NCBI RefSeq assembly: GCF_021028975.2
Contig: NC_059438.1
Location: 21,266,001-21,330,000 of the forward strand
DNA from: Sphaerodactylus townsendi
Lineage: Eukaryota
Reading direction: 5' to 3'
Length of the DNA stretch: 64,000 nucleotides
Both the position numbers and the translations under genes were made by a program. This document shows positions 712 to 59,045 of this stretch, one piece after another. The notes under the pieces are model-generated. The model was not told the origin of the DNA, searched no databases, and was given only the letters and a program-made list of their open reading frames with translations. Each line of letters starts with the position of its first letter. Positions within the stretch are counted from its first letter, which is position 1.

Positions 712-3700
712 GTTAGCCTATGTGACCGATGAGGACCTCTGCAAATGCTTTGCAGGTGAGCTGAAGTATCATATCCTAGTTAGGCTTCCCTTCCTCACTA
801 TTTCTTTGTGTGGTTAATTTTCCCATAGTTGGGTGCTGCTTCTGAAAAGACACAGGCAACTTTTGATTCTCCCAGTGAAGTCTGTTCTATTTCTGCTTCC
901 ACGTGCACCTTAAAAGTCCTTTTTTTTTTGCTCTTACAAAGCTCCAGACAAGAAGGGTTGGATCCCACAATTCCCTTTCATGTAGTCCAGACCAAGTCTC
1001 ACTTCACTAATGGAAGTCTTCTCTGTCAAAATTATTTAGCTGGAGGCAGTTGCAGGATCCCGCCTAAACTCTTTTCCCTTGGGCCTTTCCTCACCCCCTG
1101 ACTTGACTAAACTGTGGTTTGCCGATTATTTCTGAAGGCAGACCTTGTGCCTAGCCTGATCTTTCAAACAGTTGCTGTGGTAGCATTTATTCTGTGTCAC
1201 CATCTGCTTATTGGATGGCTAGATTATCTTGGCTGAAATTGGCCATGAGTACTCTCAAACAAAACAAAACAGTCTCCAAATGGAGAGTGTTTTGTTTTGC
1301 TTGATTGTGCTTAGGGCTTCACCTCTCCATTTTTTTGAAATTGACCATGCCCTGTATAAAAAATACAAATGCCCTTGGGCGAAATTCACCTGAGGACCAA
1401 AAGGCGGGATGTTCCAGAAAGCATCATACTGATGATTTACAAGGAATGAGGAGGGGACGGCTTAGGAAAAGATACAGGTGGAGTTCTTTTTTGTAGGATC
1501 GTGAGTTCTGTGGCATCCATGTTCTGTGCTTGGGCTAGCTCCGTCTCATGACCACGTTGTTCTTCTATTTCAGGTGACACACTGCTAGCCATTCGAGCCC
1601 CATCAGGCACTCAGCTCGAGGTTCCTGTTCCTGAGGTGGGTAGAATGGAGTGGGTTCTTGATAGAAAAAAGCCAATTGCTGGGAGTTGCTTACAGCTGGG
1701 AGGCTTGGTGCGCTTTTGCAATTCTGATGCAGTTACTTTAAAACATTAGTGATGCTGATAATAATTTATAGAAAATTATTTATAGCCTGGATTTCTCTCC
1801 AAGGCAAGTCACAACAGTCTCACAAGAAGAACATTTTAGAGGGTAGCCATCATGGTCTGCATTAGAACTTCTGGATTTGAGTCAAGTAGCATCTTAGAGA
1901 CCAATGGGGTTTTCAACAGAAGCTTTTGAGTCAAAACCTTTCATCAGATATAATATACAAGATACGAAGGTCTCTTCATCAGGAAGATGAGAAAATTTAT
2001 CTATTAAACAGCAGCCCACCTTCGCCCATCAGTATAATGCTAAAGCTACCATTATGAAGAACACAGCATGGTGCCCAGCACAGCTGGCAAAATTTCTCCT
2101 TGAAAGGAGAGCAGGAGCAAATGTGCCTGCATAACTGGAGAGTGATGAGCTCTGTTTTGAAGAAGTAGTTCTCATTTGGGGTTAGTGGAAGAAATGGGCT
2201 GGGTGTCTGCAGGCTGAGATTGCTGAAAATAGTGTTTTATCCTTGGCAAACTCCAAGAATGTCCCTATCTGAACTCCAAAATGGGGTGGGGGATCTCTGA
2301 ACCTCTGCGTAGCTTTGTATTAACTATAGGGTGTGATCAGAGTTTGGGATATGCCGTGGCTCAGTGGTCACAGATTCAGTCTCCAGCATCTCCAATTAAA
2401 AAGGACCAGGTACCACGTAATGTGAAAGACCTCCACCTGAGATGCTGGAAAGCTGCTGCCAGTCTGAGCAGACGATACTCACCTTGATGAACCAATGACC
2501 TGACTCAGTATCAGGCAGCTTCACAGGTGTTCACGTGTATCTCAGCAAAATTCCAAAGATGCACTTGTCCTTTTTCTCTTCAGGGCTTGAATGGGCAGAA
2601 GAAATATCAGATCCATCTGAAAAGCACAAGTGGTCCCATCGATGTTCTGCTAGTCAATAAGGATGTGTGGAGCTCCCCTCCGGTGGTACTTCCTGTCCCT
2701 CCCCCAGAAGACCTTATCCAGTGCCAGTCAGTCACTTCTTCCAAGCCCCATTCCCAAGAGGCATCCCTCCCTAGTGGTGCCCTCCCTTCCGTACCTGGGC
2801 CCAACAGCATTCAGGACCAGAGCCCTGCTCCTCAGAAAACTCTCAGCGCCACAGGTGAGTGTGAGGTGCAGGTGGAGAGTAGTTTTGTGGGGGTAGGAGG
2901 GGGATCTTTATTCTGAGCAATGTGGAATCGGCTCCTCAAGCTTCTGGAGTTATCCCTTCTTTAGAAAAAAAATTAAGTAGAGCTCTCAGTGTTTTTGTCT
3001 TTTACTTTTACTGCTTTTACTTGAGAGCCAGCATGGTGTAGTGGTTAAGAGCAGGTGCACTCTAATATGGAGAACCGGGTTTGATTCCACACTCTGCCAC
3101 TTGAGCTGTGCAGGCTTATCTGGTGAACCGGATTAACTTGTGCACTCCACCACATGTCTTCTGGGTGACCTTGGGCTAGTCGTCACAGTTCTTCACAGGT
3201 CTCTCATCCCTACCCACCTCACAGGGTTTGTTGTGGGGAGGGGAATATCAATCCAACTCCTCTTCTTCCACCTCACAGCACCTCTTTCCTCACTAACAGT
3301 CCTGCCCAGTTATTTTCAATTGTGCCAGTCATGCTGAGCAGCAGGCCACATCACCCCACGCTCAGCTCTGGAGGCCAGGGGGGCATGTCAGATGCCTGGG
3401 ATCTGTTGCAGGCCTCTTCAGTGGCATTCTTAGTGGATGTTGCCTGCTGTCTCAGTGACTGGGCACGGAGGGCAACAATTCAGTCTCTTTAGGCCTAGTG
3501 CCTTGAGATTTGCTTGCCCGCCTTGACATTCTGAATGGCTGCTCTTACCTGCTTCTTGAGGGAGGCTTTGCTTTCACAGTACAACAGGAAAGTGGCAGGT
3601 TTGCCCCGGGCAAATATTTGTTTTGCATTGTAGGCCTTGCGAGCTCTCTCAAGGATTAAATTGCAGTTTCCCATTCTTAGTTCTTGGAATGCGGTCTGCA

Positions 3701-15830: not shown

Positions 15831-15978
15831 CAGGGGTCTGCAACCTGTGGCTCTCCAGATGTTCATGGACTACAAATCCCATCAGCCCCTGCCACCATGG
15901 TCAATTGGCCATGCTGGCAGGGGTTGATGGGAATTGTAGTCCATGAACATCTGGGGAGCCGCAGGTTGCAGATCCCTG
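15831..15978. mobile_element. Palindromic hAT MITE (148 bp)
   Basis: Near-perfect fold-back CAGGGGTCTGCAACC...GGTTGCAGATCCCTG with a perfect 8-bp TSD, CACATAGG. Confidence 0.92.
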
Positions 15979-16677: not shown

Positions 16678-19600
16678 ATGCCGCCCTCCAAAGATGTTGT
16701 GAAAATTGCTGTCCAGATGATGGGAGCCATCCCCCAGCTCATTGAACTTAACCAGGTAACACTTCTCTTCCTTGCCATTTTATGCCTTGCCAAGTCTGGA
16801 TTAGCTTCCACGGCTGGAATCACTAGGGCCGTGGTGGCGAACCTTTGGCACTCCAGATGTTATGGACTACAATTCCCATCAGTCCCTGCCAGCATGGCCA
16901 ATTGGCAGGGGCTGATGGGAATTGTAGTCCATAACATCTGGAGTGCCAAAGGTTCACCACCACTGCACTAGGGCGTTGTGGGTTTTCCGGGTTGTATGAC
17001 CATGTTTCAGTAGAATCCTCTGAAGATGCCAGCCACAGATGCAGGCGAAACGTCAGGAGAAAATGCTACTGGAATACGGCCATACAAACCGGAAAACCCA
17101 CGACGCCCTAGTGATTCCAGCCGTGGAAGCCTTCGACAATGCTCTGGATTAATTGTTTTTCTGACTACTGTATCGAATAGCATCCCAGCTCGTGATCCTT
17201 TCAGTGTCTCAATATATTTGGGATGCAGATGATTGGCTTTGTTGCCAGTGTTGGATCTGGAGGGGTCGACTCATGCTGAAGTCTCCCTATGATTGTTGAT
17301 TTCAGGCAAAGCCCTTGTCTGCAGTTGTGAAAGAAGTTTGTGAAGCGTAAGTAATTTTTGCTCATCACCTTTATCTTGTTGTCTCTTGACATGCTGTGTC
17401 CAGGGTGGTACAGGACAGACTTAGCTTGGTCCCAGCAATTAATTGGCTGTCTGGTTTACTAAATACAGCAAGATGAGCTGGTAACATGAACTTCCGACTA
17501 CAGGCAACTTCTACAGAGCTTTCAGCCCCTGGATGACGATGCAGCCATCCCTGAACTTGTGCCATAATGTTTGTGGTGCAAGTTCCTTTCCCTTATGGGC
17601 TTCATGGGGGCAGGAAGATTTCACAGTGTTCCCCCTACCCATGCTGCCAAGGTGGCATGCTCCCCTGCCTGCATTGGGCTGTAAGCCTTCCTAAAACTCT
17701 GCCCAGTCCCAGCCTGTCTCTTGCAAGCTCAAGCTCTTTGAGGGTTTCATGCTTTATATTCCGGCTTTTACGATTCCTCCTGTTGCTAGATTCATCACAG
17801 TTCCCTTGAGTTTTTTAAAAAATGAAAACAATGTAAACTTCTTGCAAGTAGAAAATTAGCATCTATGGGAGCAGGCTGGGGTCAAACCATATTCCCTGAT
17901 GTGCCAATTTTTCTCAGGTAGAGATAGGGGTTTAAACGTTGGAGAGGATTCAAAAATGGTGTCCCTCCCTCCAGTCTGAAGTTTATATGCATGTACGCGG
18001 CCTGGGACCTTACGCGGCCTGGGACCCTCGTATCTTCCAGACCGCATCACCCCATATGTCCCTACATGGCCTCTTCGTTCAGTGGAGGCCAACTTACTGG
18101 TGGTCCCTGGCCCCTCGATGATGCGGCTGGCCTCCACACGGGCCAGGGCCTTTACGGCTCTGGCCCCGGCCTGGTGGAACGCTCTCCCACCAGCTGTCCG
18201 GGCCCTGCGGGATCTTGGTGAATTCCGCAGGGCCTGTAAGATGGAGCTGTTCCACCGGGCCTTTGGAGGGACCGGCTGCTGATGGTGCCCCCCCTTCTTG
18301 GCTCTTACATCTGGGCCTGATACCATCTGATGGGACTCGCCGATCCTGCCTTTGGGAAAGGATTTAATAATGGGTAGCTGGGCGCCACCTACATCTATAA
18401 TTATCAGTATCACAGTTAGTTTTTCGCTGCTTTTATAGATTTTAATTAAATTATGATGGTTTTATGATTGTATTTATTATATGTTGTACACTGCCCGGAG
18501 CCCTTCGGGGATAGGGCGGTATAAAAGTCTAAAATATAAATAAATAAATAAATAAATAAAATGTAGCTGAAGCCCTTTTGGTGGTCTCCGTTACAGGTGG
18601 AACTTGAATAATTCGGAACGTTATGCCCTGCAGTATGTGGACGGCCAGCAGGCCTACATCACGGAGTCGGTGAGAGTGTTTGGCGTACTGTTTCACTCCT
18701 CAGCCAGCCCCTTATTCCTTGGCCATTTCTGGCTGCTCTGCTGGATGTTACAGATTTTGATTCCTTAACTGTTTCTCTTTTTTTCTCTTGTCTTGCTAGA
18801 ACCGTGGAGAGATTAAAAACGGGAGCATCCTGCAGCTGACGACTGCACCGGTGGGTTCCTTCATAAAACTGTAACTGCTGCACGTTGTCAGGACCACATA
18901 GAATCATAGTGTTGGAAGAGACCACAGGGGCCATCAAGTCCAACACCCTGCCATGCAGGAACACACAATCAAAGCACTCCTGACCACCTCTCTGCTAAGG
19001 CAGGGTCTGTCATGCATTTCTCCCAAATAGAGGGCCAGCGTGATGTGGGGGTTAGAGTAGGATCGGAAAGATCTGGCTTCAGATTCCCCTTCTGTCTTTT
19101 GGATTTCTTTTCTATTACTCCAGCCAGATTTCAGACCTCTCCTTACCATTAATCATCTGGAAAGCTCATAGAGCAAAGGAGCCAACCGTATCTGTGTGTG
19201 GTGTTTGCCGCTGTGTTCTTTTCCTAGCAAGTGTTCTCTAAAAATATGTGTTGTCTTGCTAATAGTAGGAAGAGGAAAAGATATTTGTCTGTTTATTTTT
19301 ATTTTACAAAATGTGTATTCTCACAAGGGCCACCAAGGCTGCGAACAAATGGAAACACACATCACAAAACCCGCTGTTTAAAACCAGTAAAATCAACCCC
19401 CCCCCCCCAAAAAAAAACAAACAAACACCCAAAGCAGAACCTCCAAAGATGGCTGCCATGATTTGGCTGTCAGAGGCCCGTTTGGCTGCCATTGTTAACC
19501 TTTGAATATCTTATACCTCTGGGCTGCCCGCCTCTTTGGTGGGATGTCAATGCATGCCAGATTATCTCCCTGTTTCTCTGCCTGGCAGGATCACGAGGCA

Positions 19601-25600: not shown

Positions 25601-28600
25601 TTGGATTTATATCTCCCCTTTCTCTCCTGTAAGGTGACTCAAAGGGGCTTACAATCTCCTTTCCCTACACCCCTCCCCCAACAAACACCCTGAGAGGTGT
25701 GTGGGGCTGAGAGAGCTCTGAAGAACTGTGACTAGCCCAAGGTCGCCCAGCTGGCATGTGTTGGAATGTCCAAGCTAATCTGGTTCACCAGATAAGCCTT
25801 CACAGCTCAAATGGCAGAGTGGGGAATCAAACCCAGTTCTCCAAATTAGAGTGCACCTGCTCTTAACCACTATACCACACTGGTTTAGTGTAAAAAGTGA
25901 GAATTACATCCGTCATCTGTACATGCACCACCAGGGGGCGGGGACACGGAAGGAGCACGAGCACCCTCTGGCCTTGTCTCCGCCCCCAGTGAGTGGCTGT
26001 CTTCAAGCATCACTTGAATGGAGGAAAGGTTTGTTGAAGTTTTTTTGCAGGAGGGTGGGGGGTGTTGAGGCAGCGGAGGTCAGCTGGGGACTGGGCAGGG
26101 GAGGGGCGCAACACAAGGTTTTGTAACGGTACACTTCAGGAGTAATCTGCCATTCATAGGATTTGTTCCCCTGGTCAACTTTTGTGAAGTAGAGCGCGCG
26201 TGAATATGCCACAGCCTAGCTCACCCTGTATTCAATCAGTCATTTATTTTATAGACCAGTGATGGCGAACCTTTTCGAGACCGAGTGCCCAAACTGCAAC
26301 CCAAAACCCACTTATTTATCGCAAAGTGCCAACACGACAATTTAACCTGAATACTGCAGCTTTAGTTTAGAAAGGTTGGCTCCAAGGCGTGCGTTACTCG
26401 GGAGTAAGCTTGGTGGTAGTCGGTGGCTCTGCTTTGAAGCATCACCCATTTGAACCGTGCAACTCTTCAAATGGGTGAATCATGATCCTAGGAGGGTTTA
26501 TTCAGAAGCAAGCCCCATTGCCAGCAATCGAGCTTACTCCCAGGTAAAGGATCACGCTTTAGTTCTTCGCATGAAAATCAGTGAGGTTTAACAGCATTTA
26601 TCAGGATTACCTACACTGCTTCCCCAAAGCTAGGCCTTAGGTTTAATGCTAATAATCGACCCCAGCGGCCCAGGCCAGCCTAGATGTAGGGGGGGCGACT
26701 CTGTTTGCACGTGCCCACAGAGGGGGCTCTGAGTGCCACCTCTGGCACCTGTGCCATAGGTTCGCCACCACTGTTATAGACCATCAGAATAAAACATACA
26801 TTTAACAGATTGTGTATTAGAACATATATACCATTTTTAGAACATATTCCATTGAGAGATATAAAAAATAGGTGTGTTATCTGTGTTATCTGACTCTGAC
26901 AGCTGCACAGAATCTGCCAACTCTAATCTGAAGGTTCAAAGTCTGCGAGAAGAAAGGAAGTACTCTTCCACTGATCTTGCCAGGATTTTTTTGGAGGATA
27001 GCTGTAATAAGCCTGATGTCATGATAGAAGAGGCAGTGTAGCAGCAGATGTTTCAATTAGCCATGTATTTGCATTGTGTGAGTATTTTACCCATGATAAT
27101 CAGAAGCCTGAAGTCTGCATTTATATCTTTCCTTTTGCAGAATAACAGTAATCCTGCCATGGATTTGCACCGTATCCCTCCTGGGCTTCTTGCCTTGGAC
27201 AGCATGGTCTACTTCTCCAGACACTTCCCAAGTGCCTACAGCCGGGTAATTTAAGAACCTGCTATCTTTTGCATTCTAATCTGGAGAACCGGGTTTGATT
27301 CCCCATTCCTTCTAATCTGGAGAACCGGGTTTGATTCCCCATTCCTTCTAATCTGGAGAACCGGGTTTGATTCTCCATTCCTTCTAATCTGGAGAACCGG
27401 GTTTGATTCCCCATTCCTCCACCTGAGTGGCGGAGGATTCTCTGGTGAACCAGACGTGTTTCCGCATTCCTACATTCCTGCTGGGTGACCGTGGGCTAGT
27501 CACAGTCCTTCGGAACTCTCTCAGCCCCGCCTGTTGTAGGGAAAGGAAGGGAAAGGAGTTTGTAAGCCAGGAGAGAAAGGCGGGGGGAGAAAGGCGGGGG
27601 GAGAAAGGCGGGGAGAGAAAGGCGGGGAGAGAAAGGCGGGGTATAAATCCAAACTCTTCTTCTTCCTGATGGACCAATGGTTTGAATTAATTTAAAAGAG
27701 CTTCATGTGTGACCATATGTAATGCAGATTTGAATCCCCACTCTTGTCATGGAAGTTGACTGTGTGAAGTTTGACCAATCTCACACTCTCAGTCTAATAT
27801 ACCGTACAGTTTAGTTGTGAGGATAAAATGGAGGAGAGAATGTTGGCAACCGTTTTGGGTCTCTGGTGGGGAGAAAAGTGGGGTATAAATGAAAACATAA
27901 ACAAAATAAACACACTCCTGAGCCTCATGACTATGCTGTCTCTTTTGCTCGGCTTCTGTGCTGTTTATGGGGCTGAGGAGACTCTGATCATGGTCTCTTT
28001 CTCTCAGTTCATCCTTGAGAACAGCAGCCGAGAAGACAAGCACGAGTGCCCATTTGCCCGGAGCAGCATCCAGCTTGCCTTCATACTCTGCGAGATCCTT
28101 CACGTGGGGGAGCCTTGTGAGTGCTGAATGCCCTCTCCATGACCCATAATGCTTTGGGATTGCCACTTTCGTTGGTGAGGCCATCTTTGTGAGCCAGCAG
28201 GAGATGTGATAATGCAGCAGGCCTTCTCTTTCCAATAATGGTGCCCCCTTGGAGGGTTGTGTAACCCAAGGCTGTCTTCAGCTTCAAGAAGAAAGGCAGC
28301 TAGTAGAAGTGTTAAGTAAATAAAAATAAGGCCTACAAAGCAGAAGGCACATAGCTGAGGTGATGAAGAGGTGGCTCAGCTGTAGAGAATACATTTGGGT
28401 ATTGTTCATGTAGTGCCTTGGGAAGACAGAGGATATCTTACTTACTTGGTTTAGCCTATAGAATTATATTCTTCCTAAAAAGGTACACCCACTATTTCCA
28501 TTTCATTTCACAAGAGCTGTTCTTCTCAGCCATTAAGAGCCAAACTAGACGTGAGGGCAGTGGTCCTGGGGCTCACCTGTGGCCTCTGACACAGTTCTAG

Positions 28601-31600
28601 AGGAGATTTTGCTGCGAAGATCCAATCAGGGCAGGATGGAGCATGTGGGAGAGTGGATATCGGCGATCTTCTCGAATGTTTTCTCCTTTAGAGCTTTATA
28701 AATGAATGGAAGAGTGGGAAGGCCCAGAGACCGTGTTGCTGTGTCGTTTCAGGCTCCGAGACCGCCCAGGCTTTTTACCCCATGTTCTTCGGCCAAGAAC
28801 ACTTTTTCGAGGAGCTCTTCTGTATCTGCATACAGCTGTTGAACAAGACCTGGAAGGAAATGCGAGCGACGCAGGAAGATTTTGACAAGGTGAGTCCTTG
28901 TTGTGATTTGCTCAGGGATGTGTTACCCGTACAGAGGAAACTCCAGACTCTTATCTGGTGAACCAGATTTGTTTCCCTGGTCCTATATTCTTGCTGGATG
29001 ACCTTTGGCTAGTCACAGTTCTCCCAGAACTCTCTCAGCCCCACCTACCTTACAAGGTGTTTGTTGTGGGGAGAGGAAAGGAAAGGAGTTTATAAGCTGC
29101 CTTGAGTCTCCTTACGGGACAGAAAGGTGGGGTATAAATCCAAATTCTTCTCCTTCACTGAATCATTGGTGGCTGGCTAGAAACGCTACGTTCTAAGTGA
29201 ATGGTTCATTTTGAAAACCTGTTCCTTATTGTTTGAGCCCAGCAAGGACTGTGGAGGGTATGATTGATTTGTTGTGGGAAGGGGGTGGGGCTCCCTGTCT
29301 ATCTGGCTGGGATGACTCTCTTTGGCTCCTGCAGGTGATGCAAGTGGTCCGGGAGCAAATCACCAGGACTCTGATCTTAAGGCCCACCTCCTTGGAACTC
29401 TTCAAGAGCCGAGTGAATGCCCTGAACTACAGCGAGATCCTGCGTCTCCGCCAGACGGAACGAATGCACCAGGAGGAGATTTTAGCTGCGCCAGTCCTGT
29501 GAGTGCAAAGGTGTCGGAGCTTTGTGCATTTGCATATGTGATGGGCCAAAATCAGTTTTTGTGTTGGCTGCATCCCTGCCTTTTAGCTTCCAGGTACCCA
29601 CCTAATGGATGAGTGTCTGTACTGTTCCCAGTGGTGAGCTTTCCCACATGTTCAAATCACGGGTGGAGACCTCGTTTCAAGTTTTCTTGAGGGGCGGAAT
29701 GAATTCAGGTGGGATTTGGGGCAGGGCCTTTTCAGTAGCCACCCCTTCATTATGAAATTTTCTCTCCAGAGAGGCACACCGAACTCTCAGTTTATTTTTT
29801 AAGGAGCTGTAAAAAGCTTGTCCCCTTCTACAACTGGAAGCAAAACTGAGTTAAGTAGGAAGCAAGGACAACTTTGCCTGAGTCTCCTTCTTTCTATGGC
29901 CCGTTGGGTTCCCAGGCGTTTTATCTACAGTGCTCCCCTGATTCCTGTGGCCTGGTCTTTTCAGGAGGATGCTGGAGGAAAGGTGGAGAAAAATCTGTGT
30001 TTGTAGGATGGTGAGGGGTGTGTATGCATGGAGCACAGTGGAGGTCATCCCCAGGCCTGTGTTGAAAGCCTTGCCCCTCATTGCATCATGTTTTGGTCCT
30101 AGGGAGCTGAGAGAGCAGCTGAAACCAGAACTGCTCAAGCTGATCCAGCAGCAGAGGCTTCTACACCTCTGCGAAGGAACGCTTTTCCGTAAGATCAGCA
30201 GCCGGCGCAGGCAGGGTAAGTATCAGAGATGTGGTCAAAGGTGACCTATGGTAGGATTGCCCACTCTGGGTTGGAAACATCCTGGAAATTTGGGGGCGGA
30301 GCCTGAGAGAGGAGGGGCCTCAGCAAGGTACAAAACCATAGAGTCTAACCTCCAAAGCAGCCATTTTCTCCAAGGACTTGATCTGTGTAGTCTGGAGATC
30401 AGTTGTACTTCTGGGAGATTTCCAGGCCTCACCTGGAGGTTGGCAACCCTAGCTTTGCAGATATAGGAGGGGGAGATTAATGCGTTTGGCTATACCCGGG
30501 GAGGAGATTATCTAGGAAGCTCAGCCACAAATAGGGGTCCACAGTCCCATGGTTTGTGACTCCCATTTCCAAGAACTTTTGGCCTTCATGGGAAAAAATG
30601 TGAAGTCAGATTTCTAAACCATTAAAAGCCAGATAACCAAGGAGTTGAAACGTGAAAGGAAGAAGGTGGGGAAAATTGCCCCACAGATTTGGGAAGGAAT
30701 AGCAGCTTTGCATGCAGAAGATCTTGAGTTCAGCCTTCAGTCTCTCCAGTTAAAGGGTCCCTGGTTGCAGGTGTGTGGAAGAAATCCTTGCAGCTGCCAG
30801 TCAGAGCAGGCAATGCTGAACCAGACAGATCTAATAGTCTACTTCAGCCTTTATGGTGCTGAGAACTTGCTGCTGGCAATGAGGTGGAAAGGGCTGGAAA
30901 AAAAAGAAGTTGGCCGTCATTGCAAGTCTATATTAGTTCTATTGCATATATTTCTGTGCCCTTAATTGTACACTATGGGTGACTCTGCCCACACCTTCTC
31001 TCTTTGACAGATAAGCTCTGGTACTGCCGCCTTTCTCCCAACTACAAATTTCTGCACTATGGAGATGTTGAAGAAGGTACAGAAAGCCCACCTGTCGAAA
31101 GCCTGCAGGACAAAGGTAGGGCGACTCTTCCCCGTGTACTTATAAGACTTTTTCCTCTCCCCCTGGCACCAATGACCTGCATTCCTGGGCCTTGGGTGGG
31201 CATCTTATTGTCTGTGCAGGTGGGAAAACCCAGAAATAGTTACACATCCTCTTAAGCTATGCATGCTTCACTGTGAGAAATACTGCCCAGCATGGCGTTG
31301 AGTTAAGAGCAGGTACACTCTAATCTGGAGAACTGGGTTTGATTTCCCACTCCTCCACCTGAGTGGCAGAGGCTTGTTTGGTGAATCAGATTGGCTTGTG
31401 TGCTCCAGCACATGCCATCTAGGTGACCTTGGGCTAGTCACAGTTCTTTGGAGCTCTCTCAGGCCCACCCACCTCACAGGGTGTTTGTTGTTAGGGGAGA
31501 AGGGAAAGGAGTTTTAAGCTCCTTACAGGAGAGAAAGGGGGGATATTTCTCCTCCTCCTCCCCGCCTCCTCCTCCTCCCCTCCTCCTCCTCCACCACCAC

Positions 31601-37074: not shown

Positions 37075-40000
37075 TCAAAGAGTGACAGAAAGGTCTGCTC
37101 CGCCTACAAACCGGGAGTGGATATTCGTCTGCAGTAGGAGGCGTGACTGTAAGAGTTCGACGTCGGGCATGCTGATCCCACTGCACATGGAGATGTCCAA
37201 GTTCTTCAGTTGCCGACACTCCTGACTGACAGCTTTTAGAGTCCTGGTAAAGGAAAAACCCATTACAGACTGGCCAGCCTGGTGCAGTGGTTAAAAGCAG
37301 GTGGATTCTAATCTAGAGAACCGGGTTGGATTCCCCACTCCTCCACCTGAGTGGCGGAGGCTTATCTGGTGAACCAGATGTGTTTCCGCACTCCTGCATT
37401 CCTGCTGGGTGACCTTGGGCTAGTCGCAGTTCTCTCAAAACTCTCTCAGCCCCACCTGCCTCACAAGGTGTCTTTTGTGGGAAGAGGAAGGGAAAGGAGT
37501 GGCTCATCCAGCATAGCATTGCTGCAGGCTTCCCAAGGTCTGAGGAAAAGAGAGGGACCTTTCTCTGCCCTCTTAGCTAAGATCCTTTTGGAAAATGCGA
37601 AGGATTGAACCCCAGAGTCCTGTGCAGACCAAGTATGTTCTACGTCAGGGCCCCTTCCACAGAAGTAACACATGAAACTGCTTTACACCCACTCACTCCA
37701 TCAGAATCTCAGGAAGACCGGGGTCTGTCTCATCCCCACGGCTTGAGATCCTTAAAACATAGACCCTGCTGTTGTTCTTTAAGTATGATTATTTTTTAAT
37801 AAAATGGGATATGATGTCTTTTATCATGTTGTGATTTGCCCTGAGCTCATCTTAGTGAGGGAGGGGGGAATATAACTAAAACTGACTGGTTGCACTCCTG
37901 ACTTTCGGACTGTGCAATACTTACTGCGGGGTGAGCTGGTTGCAGCCAGAAAGGATGAGGTGTTGAAGCCGGTGCAAGGCGCTGGCTGCCTCCACAAACC
38001 CTCGGTCGGTCAGGTTCACACAGTGGCTGAGCGAGAGGTGCTCCAGGCTGGGGCAGTGACGAGCGACGGCTGTGAGGCTTGTGTCTGTGATGTTGGGCAC
38101 CAGGCTGAGGGACAGACGGCGGAGCTCTGGGAATCTGATGACCTGGAATAGCATGACAAGCAGCTGCAGGAGAAGACGAGGCTTTGGGGACCCAGGGCCA
38201 GCTGGGCTTGTGAGTGGCCAAGGGGGATATGTGCCTCTTAGAGCCTCTACAGCATTTCCAGCTGACTCGCGGCTGAACTATGTGCTCAGGTCTTTTACAC
38301 AAGAGCCAGCAAGGAGAGGGGGTGGTGCAGCTTCTGCTATGTTAACAAAATGGTGCATTTTCAGAGAGGCACTTGGGTGCTGAACAATATACGGAGAATA
38401 ATGGAACAAGATAGGCCTCCTACAAGAAACTGCAGGTTGTCTGCTGTCTTCAAGATCCTCTTCTGAAGGGAAAAAAAACCCTAAGCACCTCAAGGACAAG
38501 AGCAAGATAGAACATTTCCCTCCAACATGCTTTTAAAGGGCAGAGTTGCTCTTTCGTCCAGAGTGGTGCATCTGAGGAGAACTGCTGTTGTTCTAAACAT
38601 CAATTACAGGGCTTATACCATCTTAATGTGGTTGTGTGTTAGGTCTCGAACACTGAAGCAATAAACAGACTCTGTATTGTTGATTAGCAGCATTTATTGA
38701 TAGGCATTGAAGCACTCAGCTTGTCAAAGCAGGTTCTGGGGAACCTGGCTTTTGCTACCCGCTTTATTCTGATGTCAGTCCCTCCTCCCATTTTCCCAGG
38801 GAATGTGAGAAAGAGTTAGTTTGGAGCTATGGCACCCCAAGGTTGGCGATAGATAGAGATAGAGCCACCTGGCCTCCTGTCCCCACAGGACAACGGAAAC
38901 AATCCTGTTTCCCATGAGACCAAAGTGTCAGGTATCTACTTGGCGTGTGAAGCCATAAAGCAAAAATCAAGGAAAGAATGTCCCAGAATGGCAGTGATAA
39001 CAAATCGCAGGCTGGTTATATATATCTTGTAGCAATTACACTGTGCTAAGAATGCATCTCAATCAACTAGATACAATCCCTTGATACTGTGATCCTTTCA
39101 CTCTTCCCCTCAGGGCCCCATGTTTAACTAGTAAGGGACGCTCAGGGAATCAGTGATGGCTTAACTTTGATGGCACGGGGTGCCAGAGGGTGGCACTTCA
39201 GGGAGCCCACTCTCTCTGTGGAGCCTTGGCGCAAACAGAATGCCCCCTCCACACATCTAGGGCTTTGGCCAATAATTGGGCCACTGGGGCTCAATTACCC
39301 TAGCATTAAGTACGTTCCTTTAAGACTCCAGTTTTGGGGGAAGTAGTGCTAAGTGTAACCCTGTTAAGCGATGTTAAACTAAAGCGTAAACCTTTACCTG
39401 GGAGTAATCTCGGTTGCTGGCAATGGGGCTTGCTTCTGAGTAAACCCTCCTAGGGTTGTGATTTACCCGTTGGAAGAGTTGCACAGTTGCTTCAAAGCAA
39501 AGCCACTGACTACCACCAAGCTTACTCCTGAGTAACACACACCTCGGAGCCAATTGTTTTTTCTAAACAAAAACCTCAATATTCAGGTTAAATTACCGTG
39601 TTGGCACTTTGCGATAAATAAGTGGGTTTTGGGTTGCAATTTGGGCACTCGGTCTTGAAAAGGTTCGCCATCACTGGACTAGAAGCTTGGAGTTTAAAGA
39701 GTTCTCTGCCTCACTGCAACCAGCCATAGACCTAGCTGTGAATTTCCCTGTATCCCTTTCTGTATCTTCTGCCTCTGGTTTCCTGCTGAGCTCCTTGCGC
39801 CTGTAACAAACTTTTCCCCTTCTGTGTATCAAACCACTTCCCCTTCCTCCATGACCCACTTTCTTAACCAAAACCCTTTTCGAAGGGTGTTCTGTAGCCG
39901 TGCCCCAGATGAATCATTGCTACACTTTGACATCTCCCTACCCCCATCTGCATCCTCCCTAATGTAAATCTTGGCAGAGCCCATCCCTTCTGTTTTCTCC

Positions 40001-43000
40001 AAGAGGGGCACTTTATAAGGAGCCCGATGGACGGCTGCAATCCCGCTGCCACCCCTTCTTCTTCCCTGCAGACCAGCCTTAGCCGGAGCCGGCTGCAGCC
40101 TGCAAACATTGTGTCCAAACCTTGGCTATGCTCATGTCCGTCAGCTTCCCGCAGGCTGTCAGGTCAAGCTCTTGCAGGTGGCTCAGAGCATTCAAGGAGG
40201 CCCGGTGCTTCTGCTCGTCCTCCCGCTTTGTGAGGTCAACGAGGATGGAGGTGTCCTGCTCCAAATCCTGTGGAGGCGGCAGGAAGAATCCCATGTTTCC
40301 AAAATTCCTGCTGAACTTCAGGCCAGCGTCCTTCTATCAAGGCAACAACAGAAGAGTTAATGGAGTTTGGGGTTACTTGGCCACCTTTCCCTTGGTTCTG
40401 ACCGGTGGCTCATACTATGGCACAAGGTGTGCTGGGAAAGGGAGCTATGCTTCCAGGGCAAAGAACGCCTTCTGGAAAAAAAGTTTGGATTTCTACCCCA
40501 CCTTTCTCTCCTGTAAAGAGACTCAAGGTGGCTGACAAGCTCCTTTCCCTTCCTCTCCCCACAATACACATCTTGTGAGGTAGGTGGGGCTGAGAACGTT
40601 CCGAAGAACTGTGACTAGCCCAAGGTCACCCAGCAGGAATTTAGGAGTGCGGAAACTCATCTAGTTCACCAGATAAGCTTATGCCACTCAGGTAGAGGAG
40701 TGGAGAATCAAACCCTGTTCTCCAGACTAGAATCCACCTGCTCTTAACCACTGCACCACACTTTGCTTATTCTTAACTGACTGCGGCTGTTGTGTTCCCC
40801 CTGTGATGCTGCCAGGCTCTTGCTTTCCCAGCCCTGAGCTTTTAGCGACCCTCCGGATTGTCAGATATAGATTGGCAGACGCATCTGCCACTCCACACTT
40901 GCTGCTGCCAGTTCCATCAGCTAGAATCCATCTCAGTTTACGCGGCCTCCCTGGGGCCTCTGTCAGGCAGGCTTCGGATCTTTCTGGGGGTGCTGAATGA
41001 TGAGATTGAGGTGCTCTCCACCCCCCAGCAAACAATTCCTGCACTTCCTGGACTGGCTTCTTAATAACTTTCTCAGCAATTTCTGAGCTGGCAGGCCCCA
41101 TACTTAGTTTTGCTTTCTGCTGTCTCCATCCTCTGAAACCTGGTGGGAGTTATCATTGAGAGTCAAGAGGCTCGGTTGGTGGTGCAGAGTCCCTAGATGT
41201 GGTCAGGATGACATAGGGAGGAAAATAGGTTTTGATTCTGTTTTGAAGACCTTCGGCTGTAGATATAACACCCTGACTGGTCAGAGAACACAGAGCGTTC
41301 CATCCTGTGGTTCTCCAGCCTTTATCAACCTGAGAACCCAAGTTCCTCCCTCGCCTCTTAGAACAGAAGCCTGAAATGGGGTCAGAGCCAGAACCACGGC
41401 CTCCAGAGAGAAAGCAAAGGCGGGATATTTGTTTGGTCTTTCTTCCAGCTTTTTAGGGCAAATGCAGTTCTGGACGGTTGGGGGAGCAGATGCCGATTAC
41501 TACAGTGGATACAGACGAAGCTGCCTTCTACCAATTCAATCCTTGGTCTGCCGAGCTCAGTCTTGCCCACGCTGGCTGGCAGCAGCTTCCCAAGGCCTCC
41601 GGGGAGGTCTTTCATGTCACCTCCTACCTGACCTCTTGAATAGATGGCCAACATTGAAGCTGAGATCTTCAACGTGCCACAGCAGATGAAGCACAACCCT
41701 AGTGTGTTTCAGAAATGGGCAAGGGGAAATGTGATTCTTCCCCCTAGCGTGCACATACATTTACCTGTGCTTTTTGGGGGAGGGGGATTCTCTCACCTCC
41801 CTGGAGCGATCGTGCGCCTCTCTGGGCTGCTCGACCCCCAGCAAGCCCCAATCCGTCAGTTCTTTGCACCAGGCTAAACGCAAGATGGTCAAGTTCAAGA
41901 GGTGGGTGGAGATGGCTTGTACGCTTCGGTTGGTGATGGACGTGCAGGAGGAGAGATCCAAAACCCGAAGGCTTCTACGCAGCGCTCCAGCCAGCGAGAT
42001 GACAGAGCTGTCCTATGAAAGAAGGGAGAAAAAAAGTTAGGTACCGTATATACTCATGTATAAGTCGAATTTTTCAGCACATTTTTTATGCTGAAAAAGC
42101 TCCCCTCAACTTATATGCGGGTCATTAAATTTTTTTGTGTGTTTTTACTTTGCCGGCCAGCAGGGGGTGCAGATTTTATGCTAGCGACATCAGGGTACCC
42201 TCAGAAGACACTCCTGATGATACCAGCTAAGTTTGGTAAAGTTTGGTTCAGGGGATCCAAAGTTATGGACCCCCAAAGGAGGGGTAGCCCCCATTCCCCA
42301 TTGTTTTCAATGGGAGCTATTAGTAGATGGGGCTACCCTTTTGAGGGTCCATAACTTTGGACCCTCTGAACCAAACTTCACCAAACCTGGCTGGTCTCAT
42401 CAGGAGAGTCTCTTTATGATACCAGCCAGGTTTGGTGGTGAAGTTTGGGTCAGGGGATCCAAAGTTACCTGAGCCCCAAAAGTGGCGCCCCATCCCCCAT
42501 TGTTTACAATGGAAGCTAATAAGTAGATTTTCCATTTTCTGATAATATCCCTCTTAAAAAATCTAAGTTGAGTTACATTTGGACATACAGATGATGATGA
42601 GGAATCCAGTTTTGAAGGATTTTAACTCTTGTGTTTTAGCCTTCTGGTTGCTGGTTGAGCTAAGGTTTCTTGTATTTTTAAAGTTATTGCTGATACCATA
42701 TTGTTCTTTGTTGACCCTCTTTTCCACTCCCTTACAGAGCCAGTTTACTTATCGTTTTTCTTTGAAATAAATATTCAAAAAACATTTAAACCTACACAAT
42801 GATGCCTCAATTGATGTAATTTTATTGGTATCTATTTTTATTTTTGAAATTTACCAGCAGCTGCTGCATTTCCCACCCTCGACTTATACGCAAGTCAATA
42901 AGTTTTCCCAGTTTTTTGTGGTAAAATTAGGTGCCTCGACTTATATGCGGGTCGACTTATACACGAGTATATACGGGGATCTCTTTTAAGCTGCTAATGC

Positions 43001-46000
43001 ACCTTTTCGGTTACATCCATTCTTTGCCATCTGCCTTCCTTGAGTGGCTCACAGTAGATGGCAGATTTATAAAAACAATGCAGTAAAGAGCAGCATCTGA
43101 CATCCAATAAACAATGCAGTCAAACTGGATTGTGCCGTTAAGAGACCAACAGACTGACGACAGGACGCTGGATCCAGGTAGCCGAAGTGCAGCATTTTAA
43201 TGTTTACCATTCTGCGTTTTATTTTGTATCTGTATTGATTCTACTCAAGACCTTTGGCCAGAGAGGCGTAATAAAACAGGAAAGGAAGCCAAAGTTCATA
43301 GAAATTGCAGCTGGAGCTATATAGCAGGGGAAGAAGGGAATCATTCCCTTTCTCTTGTTTAGGAGTATAACCTGAGCTCACAGGCCACGATCAAACCCCT
43401 GCCTATTTTGGCATGTTATCCTTATTTAGATGTCTATGTATTTGTCCTGCCTCTATCCTATAAGACATGTGGTCAGGCTGAACCATTGATTTCTCTGAAT
43501 TTAAGAAGCGGCCTTTTAATGGACTCAGACCATTAACTGATTCAAACTGTTGAGCTGTACAGCCCAGGAGTGTCCTCTCTGACCGACAGCCAGCGTGGAA
43601 TGGTGATCAACAGCAGCGGGATCTAATCAAGCAACTATCTTCTCAAAAGGTACTTGGTCACTGAACCACAGGCCACACCCTCATCCAAGCCCTTTCTCAG
43701 TTCTGCTGCTAGACATGGCGGAGTCTAAACTGGCACCTCCCACTTCCCCTCTAGGATTTGGGTTGTTCTCTCTGATTCTTCAGGGTGTGGTTGATGACCC
43801 TCTGGAACTGGGTGCCTTTGTTTTGCAGCCAATTCTCACTATTACACACAGTTGCAGCCCCAGGAGAGGGGTTTTGCATTGATGTGTTGTAGAGGAGAAA
43901 CACACAGTGGGTTTTGTTCTCTGGGAGCAGGGGATTTTAATTCTGGAGCAGCTGGGGGATGGGGATGTAGTAGACAGCCCAGATGGGTAACATTCATGTG
44001 TCAGGTTGCAGCATGACGATTTGGTGGTCTGTTTGAAGGGGCCCCAGTATGGCGCCTGTGGGCACCATAGTGCTGCCAACACTTTCCTGGCACCCATTCA
44101 GTCTTTTTAGGGAGTGGGTGGGCCATGTAGAGCTTTTTTGCCCAGCAAGGCTACTAAGTGATAATTAAAGATTTGATTGGCTATGCCCATTTTTAAAAAT
44201 GTTGCTTCGGCAGCAGCTGGCCCCAAAGCTCCAGAACCTGTGCTACGTTACTGAAGTTAATCCGTGACAACCCTTTTGTGGCAGTCTCTACCTTCTGTGG
44301 ACATCATTCCATGGCAGCCATTTTGTTGCTGTGGCCACCGTGTTGTGTCAGAATTTCAAAAGTGCCTGCAGGCTCAAAAAGTTTAGGGACACCCATTTTC
44401 GGAAAGTTGCTGTTAGTTGCATAGCAACTTAAAACTGAAGGACAAACATCTCTCAATTGTATTTTACGAGAATTTGATGTCATCAGCAGAGGGGTGGCCT
44501 CTTGAACAACAACTTCATGTCTGTAATATGGGGGCGGAACTCCCCCCCCCCCCAACTACCACCTTCTGCCAATCCACCAGCCCATGTTTAATTATGGGTT
44601 AACCTGGTGCAAATACAAAAGAAGAAACTTAGAGATAACCCATAAAAATTCAAACAAACCCAATTTTTTTCAGAAAAGCCGAAAATATTTGGGTTTACCA
44701 AATCAGATATTCAACTTTTTCCACTTTAACAATAATTTTAGAGCCAAATAAAGCCGAATCTGAATTTCACCAAATTTGTTCGGTATTGCTCAAGCCCACT
44801 TACCCTCAGCAAAGAACAGAAAGCTACATTCAGCGAAACCAGTTGAAACTGTCCCTCGATAGACCCAAGGGCTTTCACCAGCTCGCTGGAGCTCACGAGG
44901 TTGCATTCGGACACATCCAGACTTTGGAGGTGCCTCAGGTGTGAAACTCCCTGAAAGCCAGCGTCTGTGACCCGTGGGAGCTTCCCCAGCCTCAGGCACC
45001 GAAGCTCCTGGAGGCGGGAGCAGAGGGCCAGGATGGCCCGGTTGGTCAGCTCGAAGCAACCACTCAGGTCCAGCGTGGCCAGTTGAGGCTGGTGCTGACA
45101 CAAGACACTGACAGCCTCATCAGAGAGGTTGCGGCACCCCTGGAGCACCATTTCCTGCAGGCGCAGGTTCTCCACCTGGACCAGGGACTTCATGGCCTGG
45201 CTGGAGATGCCAGTGCCACTCAGGTCCAAAGCCTTCATGATGCCCGCCCGCTCTGCAAGGAAGCGCAGCAGGTTGCGGAAGGACAGGAGGGCCGAGGAGT
45301 TGTAGTCACGAGAGCCGTGGTAGGCGTCAAACTCAAAGGTGACGTGGCAGCGGGCGAGCGACAGCTTGGCCAGCTGGTGAGCACAGCCAGTCAAGCGATT
45401 GAAGGTGAGGTCGGACAGGTAGCGCACGCTGGATAGGTTAAGGTCCTGCAGGTTGCCCAGGGCTTTCTGAGCTCGGAGGAAGGCCTGCTCTTTCGAAAGC
45501 AGAGTCCCTGGCATGAAGAGGCTGTTGCAGCCGCTCAGATCCAAGGCAGTCAAGCTAGGGCAGGCGAAGAGGAGCTCCTCAAAGCAGGCTTCTGTGATGC
45601 TGCTCCCCCGTAGGCACAAGTGGCGCAGGTGGGGACTCAGGTAATCGGCCACATAGCTGATGACCTCCCGGGAAATGGAGGAGCCATCTAGGTTTGTTAT
45701 TTGGATGCTGCAGACCCGTCTCCGGGACAGGCTTTTGATGGTCCCCAGTGAGGCGGAAGTAACTGGGATGTTGTAGAAGATGCTGTCCTCCTGGAAGCAA
45801 AGAAGAGGGCAATTAGATGGCAAAGAGAGACTGAGACAGATTGACAACCGCGGTGCTTCCTGCCCATCTGTCATGGCATGTCGCTTCCCTGAGCCAGTGC
45901 AGTGGCAGAGCGGGATCCAGCAGCTCGGGTTGGAATCCCCGTTCTGCCATGGAAGCTAACTGGGTGACTTCAGGCCACTCCCACCGCCTAACCTACCTCA

Positions 46001-49000
46001 CAGGGGTGGTTGTTGTGAGGATAAAATGGAGGAAGGGGTAATGATGTTGTAAGCCAATTGGGTCCCCATTGGGGAGAAAAGCAGGGTACAAATAACTAAT
46101 CAGTGTAACTAAAAGTCACTTTCTCAGTTTAAACTATCTGACAGGGTTGTTATGAGATTAAAGTAGTGATCTCCCCACCCAGAACACTGATCCAACTTTT
46201 TGAGTGTAAGGGCAGGATAGACATGCATTCAGTAGCCACAGAACAAATGAGCTTGCCCATTACAGTTCTCTAGCAGGGCACCTTTAGAGGCAGAGGGAAA
46301 ATATGATAGGGCTTCCAAAAGACAGAGGAGCATTCCTTCAGATTTAATCTGCTACTGCCCATCATATGCAGCCTTATCATCGAATGTTTCCAAGCCATGA
46401 ATGGGGAGAAAAGTCGTACACAAAAACAACATTTCATACAAAGCAACTTTATTGGTATGGGCTTGTTTATGATATATGCTGCCAATACATCAGGCATATG
46501 TTGCCAGCAACCCTTCTGCTGGATTCCTGGTTGTCTGGTTGATGAGTGCTGCATTTTTTAAGGGCCTGTGGAACAAATCTGGGATGTTTTTCCCCTCAGG
46601 GCAGAATGAACGGTATAAACCACCAGTCAGAAACCACAAGAAGTGTGGAGAAGTAGTGGGTGCCTCAAATCCCAAATGCCCTTAATTTAAACAGCAACAT
46701 TCCCAATCCCTCTCCAAGATTTGTAGATTGCACCATTGTGTATGGGTTGGGAGGAGGGGGCAGCATGACCCTGCTTTTAAGAACCAACGGAGGAAGAGAT
46801 GGTTTACCTGCCGCAAGGAGTCTTGGGCTGCAAAATACCAGCTTTGGTTCACCAGAGAGGCCTCTTTCCTGTCGGGGATGGGCAGGAAGTTCAGAATGTG
46901 AGTGATCACCTGTCAAGAATTTTAAAAAAGTCTGTCAAGACGGAGATCCAGCCAAAGGGCCTTCCTTTCTCTCCTTTAGGATAGGGTGACTTAAATAACA
47001 CCCAGCACACACAGAGTTGATTTAACTCAAGTTTCCCTTTCTGTAACTCTTCTTTTTCTGAAAACTGCAAGCACTAAATACAGAAGCTGCTGGATGAAAC
47101 AGGGTGGTCCCATGGAACGCAAAAGAAACCTTCATGTGACACGGTTGACAGAGTCACAAATACTGATGATTAACCCAGTACTAAAAATATTACTCTGGCC
47201 GCTTCATCAGATGTATAATTCTTGATTTCGTATCTCCCCCCTATTTTTTTTTTAAAACCTCATCTAAATTGATCTGATGTGGTAACAGGTTCAGTTTGAA
47301 GAGAACAGAAAGGTAGTAACCATCATTTAGATTACCCTCAAATTTCATTTTAGAACTCTGACTCATGAGAGCTAAAACGGCAGTGAATGTTTTTAGTCTT
47401 TAAGGAGCTGCAGAACTTGCTTTTTGTCTGTTAAAAAAAACATTTTGTAGAACTGCATTGTAACTTTTAAAACACCCAATTTAATATAGTTTTCAATTCC
47501 CCCTCCCCACAAAAATATTGATTTCTAAGCATGTTGTTCATTCATTCAGCGGCCTATTAAAAGACAGATATTGCATGGAAGAAATGAGAAATGGAGCAAT
47601 GGATTTTGTCTGTTTTCCAAAGGAAGAGGAATGCTGGAAACTGGAATGTGCTTGGTGTGTGGCTTGTGGCAGCCTGTGGGTGAAACAACTGTGTTCAAAG
47701 AACAGGCGTACTCCATTCATACTGTACATACCAATGCTAGTTTTGTGAAAGGTGAGTCTACAACCATAATTTATTCTATAGTACACCACTAAAGCAAATG
47801 TTTGTGCATTTCCATATTTATTTGTTTATTTGTTTATTACTGTAGATTTCATAGACTGCCTCATCCCCAAAGGGCTCCCCCCCCCCCCTTGAGTTCAGGG
47901 TGGATTGTATAATTATTCCCGGATTCCATTTTCTTCTTACGACAATCTTGTGAAATAGGTTGGGCCAAGTTTAAGACAGTGACTGTTCTAAGATCCCAGT
48001 GAGACTTCCGGCTTGGAGGGTTGAACCTGAGTCCAGTGCTCTAACCAGTATACCACATGGCCCACAATGGCTCAAGGCGAGCAGTGTGTTTACTATCTTT
48101 TCTACTCCAGAGTCAAGCACGCCAACTTGGCATGGGTGCCTGTGATTTGAAAAGACAGAAACTGATCCGGGGATGGGAGGGCTGTGTGTCTGGAAACACT
48201 GAAGTGTTTGTCCAGATCAACTGAATGCTGATCCTTGTGCAAAACCTGGATGTGATATAGCAACATTATGTACGATGATAAGACCATAAAAGCAATTAAT
48301 AATTAACTGGGCATTATTGATACGAAACATCTATCTGTGACCTATGGTTCTGAAGGATATCGCTGCCCCTCCTCCACAGCAGGTGGAAAGACACAAAGAA
48401 GCTAGACATAGCTGGAAATCTGGTCCATCCTTAACAAGCCACAATTTGTTTCTGTATTCCTTCAAAAAAGGATGAAGAGCGACGTGCCCCAAAACAATCC
48501 TCACACACTTCACCAGCATCTTTTCTAGCCCACCTATTCATTTTCATGCAGGGTATTCAAAATCCCACTAACCCTTCAAAACCCATGTGGTTTTCTTTTG
48601 TAACAGGCACCGGAATGGGTGAGTTGGACTCGCATCTGAGAATGTATTTTCAAAAATAAAGCTTCAGCTCAGGCAAAATTCATACAGGAGTTTCCTAAAA
48701 CGGATAGGTAATTGCAGGGGGCTACCTCAAAACTTAAGAACATAAGAACAAGCCAGCTGGATCAGACCAGAGGCCATCTAGTCCAGCTCTCTGCTACTCG
48801 CAGTGGCCCACCAGGTGCCTTTGGGAGCTCACATGCAATGGCCTTCTGCGGCTGTTGCTCCCGAGCACCTGGTCTGTTAAGGCATTTGCAATCTCAGATC
48901 AAGGAGGATTAAGATTGGTAGCCATAGATCGACTTCTCCTCCATAAATCTGTCCAAGCCCATTGGGGGGGGGGGGGGGGGGGAGAAAAAAGATTTTTGAA

Positions 49001-58641: not shown

Positions 58642-59045
58642 ATATATTGTCGAAGGCTTTCATGGCTGGATTAAACTGGTTCTGGTGGGTTTTCCGAGCT
58701 GTGAGGTCGTGGTCTGGTGGATCTTGTTCCTAATGTTTCACCTGCATCTGTGGCTGGCATCTTCAGAGGTGTATCACAGAGGGAAGTCTGATACACACTT
58801 TGTCCCTGCAATGCAGAAGAAAGGATAAAGAGCATAGCAGGTGTGCTTCTTGATCCTCTCCATTTTCTGGGTCTGTTGGAAGGTTTCCTCCCCGCAGAGG
58901 TGTTCAATGTATTGTCGGAGACACAGTGTGTAACAGACTTCCCTCTGTGATGCACCTCTGAAGATGCCAGCTACAGATGCAGGCGAAACGTTAGGAACAA
59001 GATCCACCAGACCACGGCCACACAGCCTGGAAAACCCACCAGAAC
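58642..59045. mobile_element. Penelope-like element relic with inverted pLTR arms and 15-bp TSD
   Basis: Arms ~58679-58797 and ~58926-59045 are reverse complements; AACAAGCAGGTGAGA is duplicated at 58627-58641 and 59043-59057. Confidence 0.85.
58955..58995 (+). ncRNA. Minimal hammerhead ribozyme motif (GUU triplet); a decayed twin lies on the - strand at 58729-58769
   Basis: CCT-CTGAAGA-T-GCC...GGC-GAAA-CG-TT/AGG. The minus-strand copy reads GGTGAAACATT, consistent with CpG decay. Confidence 0.68.

What the first reader, a model, noticed from the sequence alone, without database searches (positions are those of the whole stretch)
17016..17058. Intact hammerhead ribozyme motif in sense orientation inside an ELMO3 intron
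Seen: a full catalytic core (CUGAAGA...GAAA...GUC) with stems I and II and a palindromic ACGU stem III, ~260 nt downstream of the first coding exon and on the transcribed strand. Known: Penelope-like elements encode such minimal type I hammerheads, which cleave poorly as monomers and better as dimers. Inference: the ELMO3 pre-mRNA may be cleavable after C17054, and the flanking fold-back arms could hold the ends together or favour folding. This is the best candidate here for an unannotated functional RNA.
Basis: partly seen in the sequence, partly recalled or inferred. Interest (0 to 1): 0.7.

Follow-up and report, generated by a model that had tools for sequence, protein, structure and literature searches.

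The report
Poseidon retrotransposon stub in ELMO3 intron
The self-cutting RNA motif in this lizard ELMO3 intron is real, but it is one of about 9,000 identical copies left by a Penelope-type jumping gene, and it likely does not cut the host RNA.

Summary
It is not specific to this locus. The same 43 bases occur 8,991 times in the genome. They form the ORF start of a Poseidon-clade Penelope-like element; an intact 819-aa RT ORF begins with the same motif. The insert (16804-17142) is a 5'-truncated stub with an inverted arm, a 9-bp target duplication and a later MITE. The fold-back is therefore a by-product of insertion. Stem III has no loop, so one copy cannot fold into an active core, and no second copy lies in this gene. 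Modelling buries the cleavage site (0.1% ready) and disfavours the dimer. Across copies, the essential A6 mutates as often as the free A7 (132 vs 139). Earlier notes of this scan describe seven similar stubs, two in this genome. Verdict: an ordinary, likely inert fossil of a known kind.

The parts
16678..16755 (+). First coding exon of the ELMO gene (ELMO3 by gene order)
   Evidence: 26 aa match ELMO1/2 N-termini in PDB, E 6e-4; ELMO_CED12 and PH_12 hits at 27042-31252
16756..17305 (+). 550-nt GT-AG intron that holds the insertion; next exon 17306-17346
   Evidence: Sequence
16795..16803 (+). Left copy of the 9-bp target site duplication
   Evidence: Identical to 17143-17151
16804..16828 (-). 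Outer part of the inverted Poseidon arm (reverse complement of 17106-17130)
16829..16965 (.). Later MITE (hAT-type by its 8-bp TSD and CAG-type TIR; class name recalled) inserted into the arm; TSD 16821-16828 / 16966-16973
   Evidence: TSD identical; TIRs differ at 2 of 32 bases; high-copy in DNA runs
16974..17016 (-). Inner part of the inverted arm (reverse complement of 17063-17105); stops short of the hammerhead, joined to the direct copy through a 2-nt overlap
   Evidence: Whole arm differs from the direct copy at 7 of 68 bases
17016..17058 (+). Minimal type I hammerhead motif; predicted cut after C17054
   Evidence: 8,991 exact copies
17026..17142 (+). First 117 nt of the Poseidon ORF (ATG at A9-U-G10.1), including the 3' tail; the element ends at +117
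   Evidence: Aligns without gaps to the start of the intact 819-aa ORF in L146, 15 differences in 117
17143..17151 (+). Right copy of the 9-bp target site duplication (contains ATT)

Best explanation
The motif is the hammerhead at the ORF start of a Poseidon-clade Penelope-like retrotransposon, left in the ELMO3 intron as a short head-to-head stub, and it is likely a passenger that is spliced out uncut. Shown here: the repeat identity, the element boundaries, the 9-bp target duplication, the inverted arm and the later MITE. Inferred origin: the element protein cut the AT-rich site with a 9-nt stagger and primed cDNA from both cut strands near ORF positions +117 and +105. The two short cDNAs were joined through a 2-nt overlap, giving the fold-back. 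Inferred behaviour: in the pre-mRNA the arms zip into a long hairpin. Within its loop the CUGA box pairs over the cleavage site. The loop-less stem III can form only with a second molecule, which the gene does not supply and the arms hinder.
For: Copy number: 8,991 exact 43-mers, control 0. In 60 evenly spaced 10-kb stretches there were 49 pieces, 34 spanning the core, 3 exact and 8 of 34 with an intact core. Identity: L146 holds an open 819-aa frame that starts at this ATG, with RVT_1 E 1e-12 and a GVY..YIG motif. The cut lies 26 nt after the start codon and the end is at +117; PMC11167929 gives 26 nt and RT starts at +111-118 for Poseidon_Ac. Ends: 113 of 139 hits stop at +83-89 or +116-124, and none passes +129. 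Architecture: 23 of 30 exact copies have an inverted arm within 700 nt. Inverted 5'-truncated pLTR, tail and 8-10-bp TSD are the published layout (passages of PMC3846280 and PMC8557442). Neutral decay: single mutants number 132 at essential A6, 139 at free A7 and 2,665 at G12, a CpG. Folding: ready fraction 0.8% alone and 0.1% in the intron; the active dimer lies +4.1 kcal/mol above two monomers, +5.9 with the arms. Literature: a single min-HHR showed no detectable cleavage (PMC4209133). The PAc hammerhead cut only with its protein, the minimal RNA needed 172 nt of ORF (this stub has 117), and no RNA-seq ends were found at the cut site. RNA of a related species: no pile-up of ends at 17054/55 among family reads (weak).
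Against: This copy is intact over all 43 bases although its 3' part has drifted. With 7 of 68 differences between the arms, about 5% per copy, that has a chance of roughly 0.1, so it is mildly lucky. Its arm does not cover the motif, unlike 19 of 30 exact copies, and its ready-fold penalty is the lowest: 0 of 30 are lower, the next being 4.4, 4.9 and 5.1, which is within model error. An intact ORF and a 98-99% identical young subfamily exist in the genome, so helper protein could be present. The insertion is shared with at least one related species, and the state of the core there could not be read. Nearest-neighbour models omit core tertiary contacts and Mg2+. The genome-wide decay test speaks for the family, not for this one locus. 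No cleavage assay was run.
Confidence: 0.9

Rival explanations
1. Conditional cleavage in trans. Where Poseidon protein is expressed, it binds the stub's tail, refolds the motif (alone or with another family transcript) and a small share of ELMO3 pre-mRNA is cut. The arms hold the ends together, so splicing may still finish.
For: The PAc hammerhead is protein-assisted (PMC11167929). An intact 819-aa ORF is in this genome. The motif is unlocked and has the lowest penalty of 31 copies. Family RNA is plentiful in a relative's RNA-seq.
Against: The stub lacks ORF +118-172, which PAc needed for DNA cleavage and extension in vitro; its need for RNA cleavage was not tested in that paper. No cut-site ends were seen in Anolis RNA-seq or here. 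There is no sign of selection for or against the core.
Confidence: 0.07
2. Exapted regulatory ribozyme. The copy is kept by the host to tune ELMO3 output, like the conserved intronic hammerheads of amniotes (recalled, not read here).
For: Sense orientation, an intact core, a position 261 nt from the first coding exon, and an insertion shared with organism D.
Against: It is unchanged from the family sequence and has gained no stem III loop that would make it active as a monomer. The arm took a MITE insertion and 7 of 68 changes. About a quarter of random copies are also intact (8 of 34), and orientation is a coin toss.
Confidence: 0.02
3. The insert matters through its double-stranded RNA (editing, splicing kinetics, small RNAs), not through catalysis.
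For: Very stable fold-back (z -9.7; -249 kcal/mol for the whole insert), filling about 340 of 550 intron bases.
Against: Such hairpins are the family default (23 of 30 copies). No locus-specific intron reads were available to test editing.
Confidence: 0.05

Closest known systems
Poseidon_Ac / PAc, Penelope-Poseidon clade element of Anolis carolinensis (Frangieh et al. 2024, PMC11167929; parts 1-2 of 4 of the text read)
   Same: ORF starts at stem II; cut 26 nt after the start codon; insertion ends at +111-118 with a second end 30-40 nt upstream; AT-rich target with ATT; ORF of similar length (819 aa here) with RT.
   Different: This is a 339-bp truncated, inverted, non-coding stub of a related family in another lizard. 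It has only 117 nt of ORF and a MITE in its arm. No sequence alignment to PAc itself was made.
Minimal type I hammerheads (min-HHR) of metazoan PLEs (Cervera and De la Pena 2014, PMC4209133; parts 1-2 of 4 read)
   Same: Intact core, extra base between A9 and G10.1, G10.1-C11.1, palindromic 15.2-16.2, no loop 3, 4-bp helix I; mostly single motifs from truncated elements; opposite-strand pairs also reported.
   Different: Helix II has 3+2 pairs with an A.A mismatch rather than 7-8 pairs; helix I is extended by an insertion-made arm.
Non-LTR retrozymes (bioRxiv 10.64898/2026.07.22.740005; passages only)
   Same: Hammerhead-bearing non-autonomous sequences derived from PLE pLTRs.
   Different: Retrozymes are head-to-tail tandems that supply a dimer partner; this is one copy with a head-to-head arm that lacks the motif.

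Membership tests
Minimal type I hammerhead (PLE min-HHR) | Core C3-U4-G5-A6-N7-G8-A9, G12-A13-A14-A15.1, U16.1-H17 | tested here: met
   17020-26, 17047-50, 17053-54
Minimal type I hammerhead (PLE min-HHR) | Extra base after A9, G10.1-C11.1 pair, palindromic 15.2-16.2, no loop 3, helix I of 4-5 bp | tested here: met
   U17027; G17028-C17046; C17051/G17052; 4-bp helix I (features)
Minimal type I hammerhead (PLE min-HHR) | Second copy in cis for the dimer | tested here: not met
   No other copy within the ELMO gene span; the nearest are 42 kb away, beyond the neighbouring LRR/F-box gene
Minimal type I hammerhead (PLE min-HHR) | Self-cleavage activity | not testable with these tools
   Models disfavour it; no assay
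Canonical (Rfam) hammerhead families | Match to a curated covariance model; closed helix III | tested here: not met
   No hammerhead among 22 matches at E<=10; no loop 3
Penelope/Poseidon-clade PLE insertion | Single ORF with RT in full-length relatives, hammerhead at its start | tested here: met
   L146: 819 aa from the same ATG, RVT_1 E 1.1e-12
Penelope/Poseidon-clade PLE insertion | C-terminal GIY-YIG endonuclease | tested here: inconclusive
   GVY..YIG motif visible near the C-terminus, but Pfam GIY-YIG did not score on it
Penelope/Poseidon-clade PLE insertion | 5' truncation, inverted 5' arm, 30-40-bp tail, short TSD | tested here: met
   9-bp TSD and arm; two 3' end clusters about 33 nt apart
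Penelope/Poseidon-clade PLE insertion | Phylogenetic placement of the RT in Penelope/Poseidon rather than Neptune | not tested
   No tree built; clade inferred from the positional matches to PAc
Non-LTR retrozyme | Head-to-tail tandem monomers, each with a hammerhead | tested here: not met
   Single copy at this locus

The most novel reading that the evidence does not exclude
Unlocked Poseidon stubs such as this one are latent cut sites in host pre-mRNAs that switch on when the element's protein is made in trans. Here the arm insulates the hammerhead and clamps the cut ends, so transposon activity would nick ELMO3 and perhaps thousands of other introns while splicing continues across the break.
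Probability: 0.05. Interest if true: 0.7.

Novelty: new member of a known kind. Interest (0 to 1): 0.12.

Why it matters
As found, it matters little: it is one more fossil of a known retrotransposon, useful as a record of how Poseidon inserts (two priming ends, microhomology join, 9-bp TSD). The one reusable result is at family level: catalytic positions of genomic copies decay at the neutral rate, which argues that hosts neither keep nor purge these ribozymes. If protein-assisted cleavage of unlocked stubs were shown, it would tie transposon expression to cleavage of host pre-mRNA genome-wide and help settle what PLE hammerheads do.

Tried and rejected
Rfam scan: no hammerhead; the miRNA matches are below their gathering scores and fall on MITE hairpins. 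GIY-YIG family search of the genome: 3 hits, none with the motif within 1.5 kb, not used. Run search: no RNA holder listed; this is not used as evidence. ELMO3 expression: the two RNA runs are from a related species and were read in part (about 6% and 19%). Exon 1 depth was 0 and about 3.6, and no reads fell on the unique intron parts, so nothing locus-specific could be tested. State of the core in relatives: no listed contig spans the motif together with unique flank. The organism B contig has only 30 element bases at the 3' junction, one short of the bridging rule, so only organism D (two runs, one study) is counted. The low mutation count at 17020-26 in the random sample was rejected as a sign of selection: copies were kept only if the alignment began by query position 5, which drops copies mutated there (15 of 49 pieces did not span the core). 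Searches replaced that test. The share of C17 to U reads in RNA (about 40%) was rejected as editing, because a second subfamily has U there in DNA. Sense/antisense bias of copies within genes was not tested (no annotation). Paper searches: hammerhead+Penelope+gecko gave 1 irrelevant paper; the six-term intronic-hammerhead search gave 0. No search combined ELMO3 with hammerhead, so I do not claim that this locus is unreported. Supplements of PMC11167929 and PMC4209133 were not opened; they hold the PAc sequence and the cleavage gels.

Full report
Observation. Stem III has no loop, so it cannot close in one molecule. The host exon 16678-16755 matches ELMO N-termini, and further ELMO domains follow on the same strand at 27042-31252. 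The neighbours are an E2F gene and an LRR/F-box gene, which fits ELMO3 by recalled gene order. The motif starts 261 nt into a 550-nt intron. No shuffle reproduces it (0 of 100). Rfam lists no hammerhead here.

What it is. The 43 bases occur 8,991 times without a mismatch in the genome, with 0 for the reversed control. In 60 evenly spaced 10-kb stretches there were 49 family pieces; 34 spanned the core, 3 were exact and 8 of 34 kept an intact core. Scaled to the genome, that is roughly 100,000 motif-bearing copies, a rough figure that includes a second subfamily. Longer copies run upstream into reverse-transcriptase coding sequence. Locus L146 holds an open 819-aa frame that begins at the same ATG as 17026, with RVT_1 at E 1e-12 and a GVY..YIG motif that Pfam did not score. 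Frangieh et al. (PMC11167929, parts 1-2 of 4 read) report for the anole Poseidon element that the ORF starts at stem II, the cut is 26 nt after the start codon, and reverse transcription starts at +111-118 and at a second site one tail-length away. Here the cut is 26 nt after the codon and the element ends at +117. Of 139 hits in 119 loci (some overlapping), 46 end at +83-89, 67 at +116-124 and none beyond +129.

Anatomy. A 9-bp target duplication (16795-16803, 17143-17151) frames the insert. Inside lies an inverted arm, the reverse complement of 17063-17130, differing from the direct copy at 7 of 68 bases. A 137-bp MITE with its own 8-bp duplication interrupts the arm, so it arrived later. 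The direct copy follows at 17016-17142. Inverted 5'-truncated arms, tails and short duplications are the published layout of these elements (passages of PMC3846280 and PMC8557442). Of 30 exact copies, 19 have an arm that covers the motif, 4 have an arm that stops short of it as here, and 7 have none (two pairs of these loci are the two sides of one insert). Contigs of organism D bridge the 3' junction, so the insertion predates that split.

How it likely works. Inferred origin: staggered cut, priming from both strands near +117 and +105, and a join through a 2-nt overlap. Predicted RNA behaviour: the arms form a long hairpin (z -9.7). In its loop, 17019-23 pairs with 17053-57, burying both the CUGA box and the cut site. 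The ready fold holds 0.8% of the ensemble alone and 0.1% in the intron. The active double hammerhead lies 4.1 kcal/mol above two monomers, or 5.9 with the arms, which must then be exchanged between molecules. No second copy lies in the gene. Cervera and De la Pena (PMC4209133, parts 1-2 of 4 read) saw no cleavage from a single minimal motif and low cleavage from dimers. The anole motif cut only with its protein, and no cut-site ends were found in RNA-seq. Among otherwise exact 35-mers, single changes number 132 at the essential A6, 139 at the free A7 and 2,665 at G12, a CpG. Genomic copies thus decay without regard to catalysis. In two RNA runs of a related species, family reads covered the motif at depths of about 1,000-1,400 and showed no pile-up of ends at 17054/55; the only one listed was at 17074. 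These are standard libraries and nearly all reads come from other copies, so this is weak evidence.

Against this reading. The copy is fully intact, which has a chance of roughly 0.1 at its level of drift. Its arm leaves the motif free, and its ready-fold penalty is lower than in all 30 other exact copies, though the next few are within model error. An intact ORF and a young subfamily (98-99% identity) mean that helper protein may exist. The stub lacks ORF +118-172, which the anole protein needed for DNA cleavage and extension; whether RNA cleavage needs it was not tested there. The models omit tertiary contacts, no assay was run, and the orthologous core could not be read.

Comparison and novelty. 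It works like, and meets the tested sequence features of, a PLE minimal hammerhead. It fails the features of canonical hammerheads and of tandem retrozymes. Placement in the Poseidon clade is inferred from positional matches, not from a tree. Earlier notes of this scan describe seven similar lizard stubs, two in this genome. I had reached this reading before seeing them, and they are unchecked AI notes, not support. Verdict: a new copy of a known kind, likely inert; interest 0.12.

Noticed in passing
window 58646-59046: A second head-to-head stub of another subfamily (U at position 17). Motifs at 58732-58766 (-, 3 changes including C11.1 and G16.2) and 58958-58992 (+, core intact), with an apparent 15-bp duplication at 58627-41 / 59043-57.
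   Followed up: partly
G000:C9:22336775-22336995 (- strand): Three same-strand copies of the motif, 124 and 62 nt apart, sharing one change at the free position 7. Such a tandem could form the double hammerhead in cis and is a better cleavage candidate than the ELMO3 copy.
   Followed up: no
L146:181-2637 (+): Intact 819-aa element ORF; its 5' end appears to sit at an inverted junction rather than behind a full pLTR.
   Followed up: partly
L061-L080: Young subfamily, 98-99% identical over 395 nt upstream of the motif, with 2,241 candidates: the family was active recently.
   Followed up: partly
window 16829-16965 and 15841-15968: Two related hairpin MITEs that give sub-threshold Rfam miRNA matches (mir-5408, mir-9 and others); likely artefacts of the palindrome.
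   Followed up: partly
window about 17990-18560: GC-rich stretch with a short tandem duplication and a (TAAA)n tail in the next ELMO intron; looks like another retroelement 3' end.
   Followed up: no
window 17074 (run X24): The only pile-up of read ends listed: 10 molecules against a depth of 49, 20 nt downstream of the predicted cut; these are family reads, perhaps one expressed copy.
   Followed up: no
window 37924-46912 (-) and 1552-2913 (+): LRR/F-box gene exons downstream and E2F exons upstream of the ELMO gene.
   Followed up: partly
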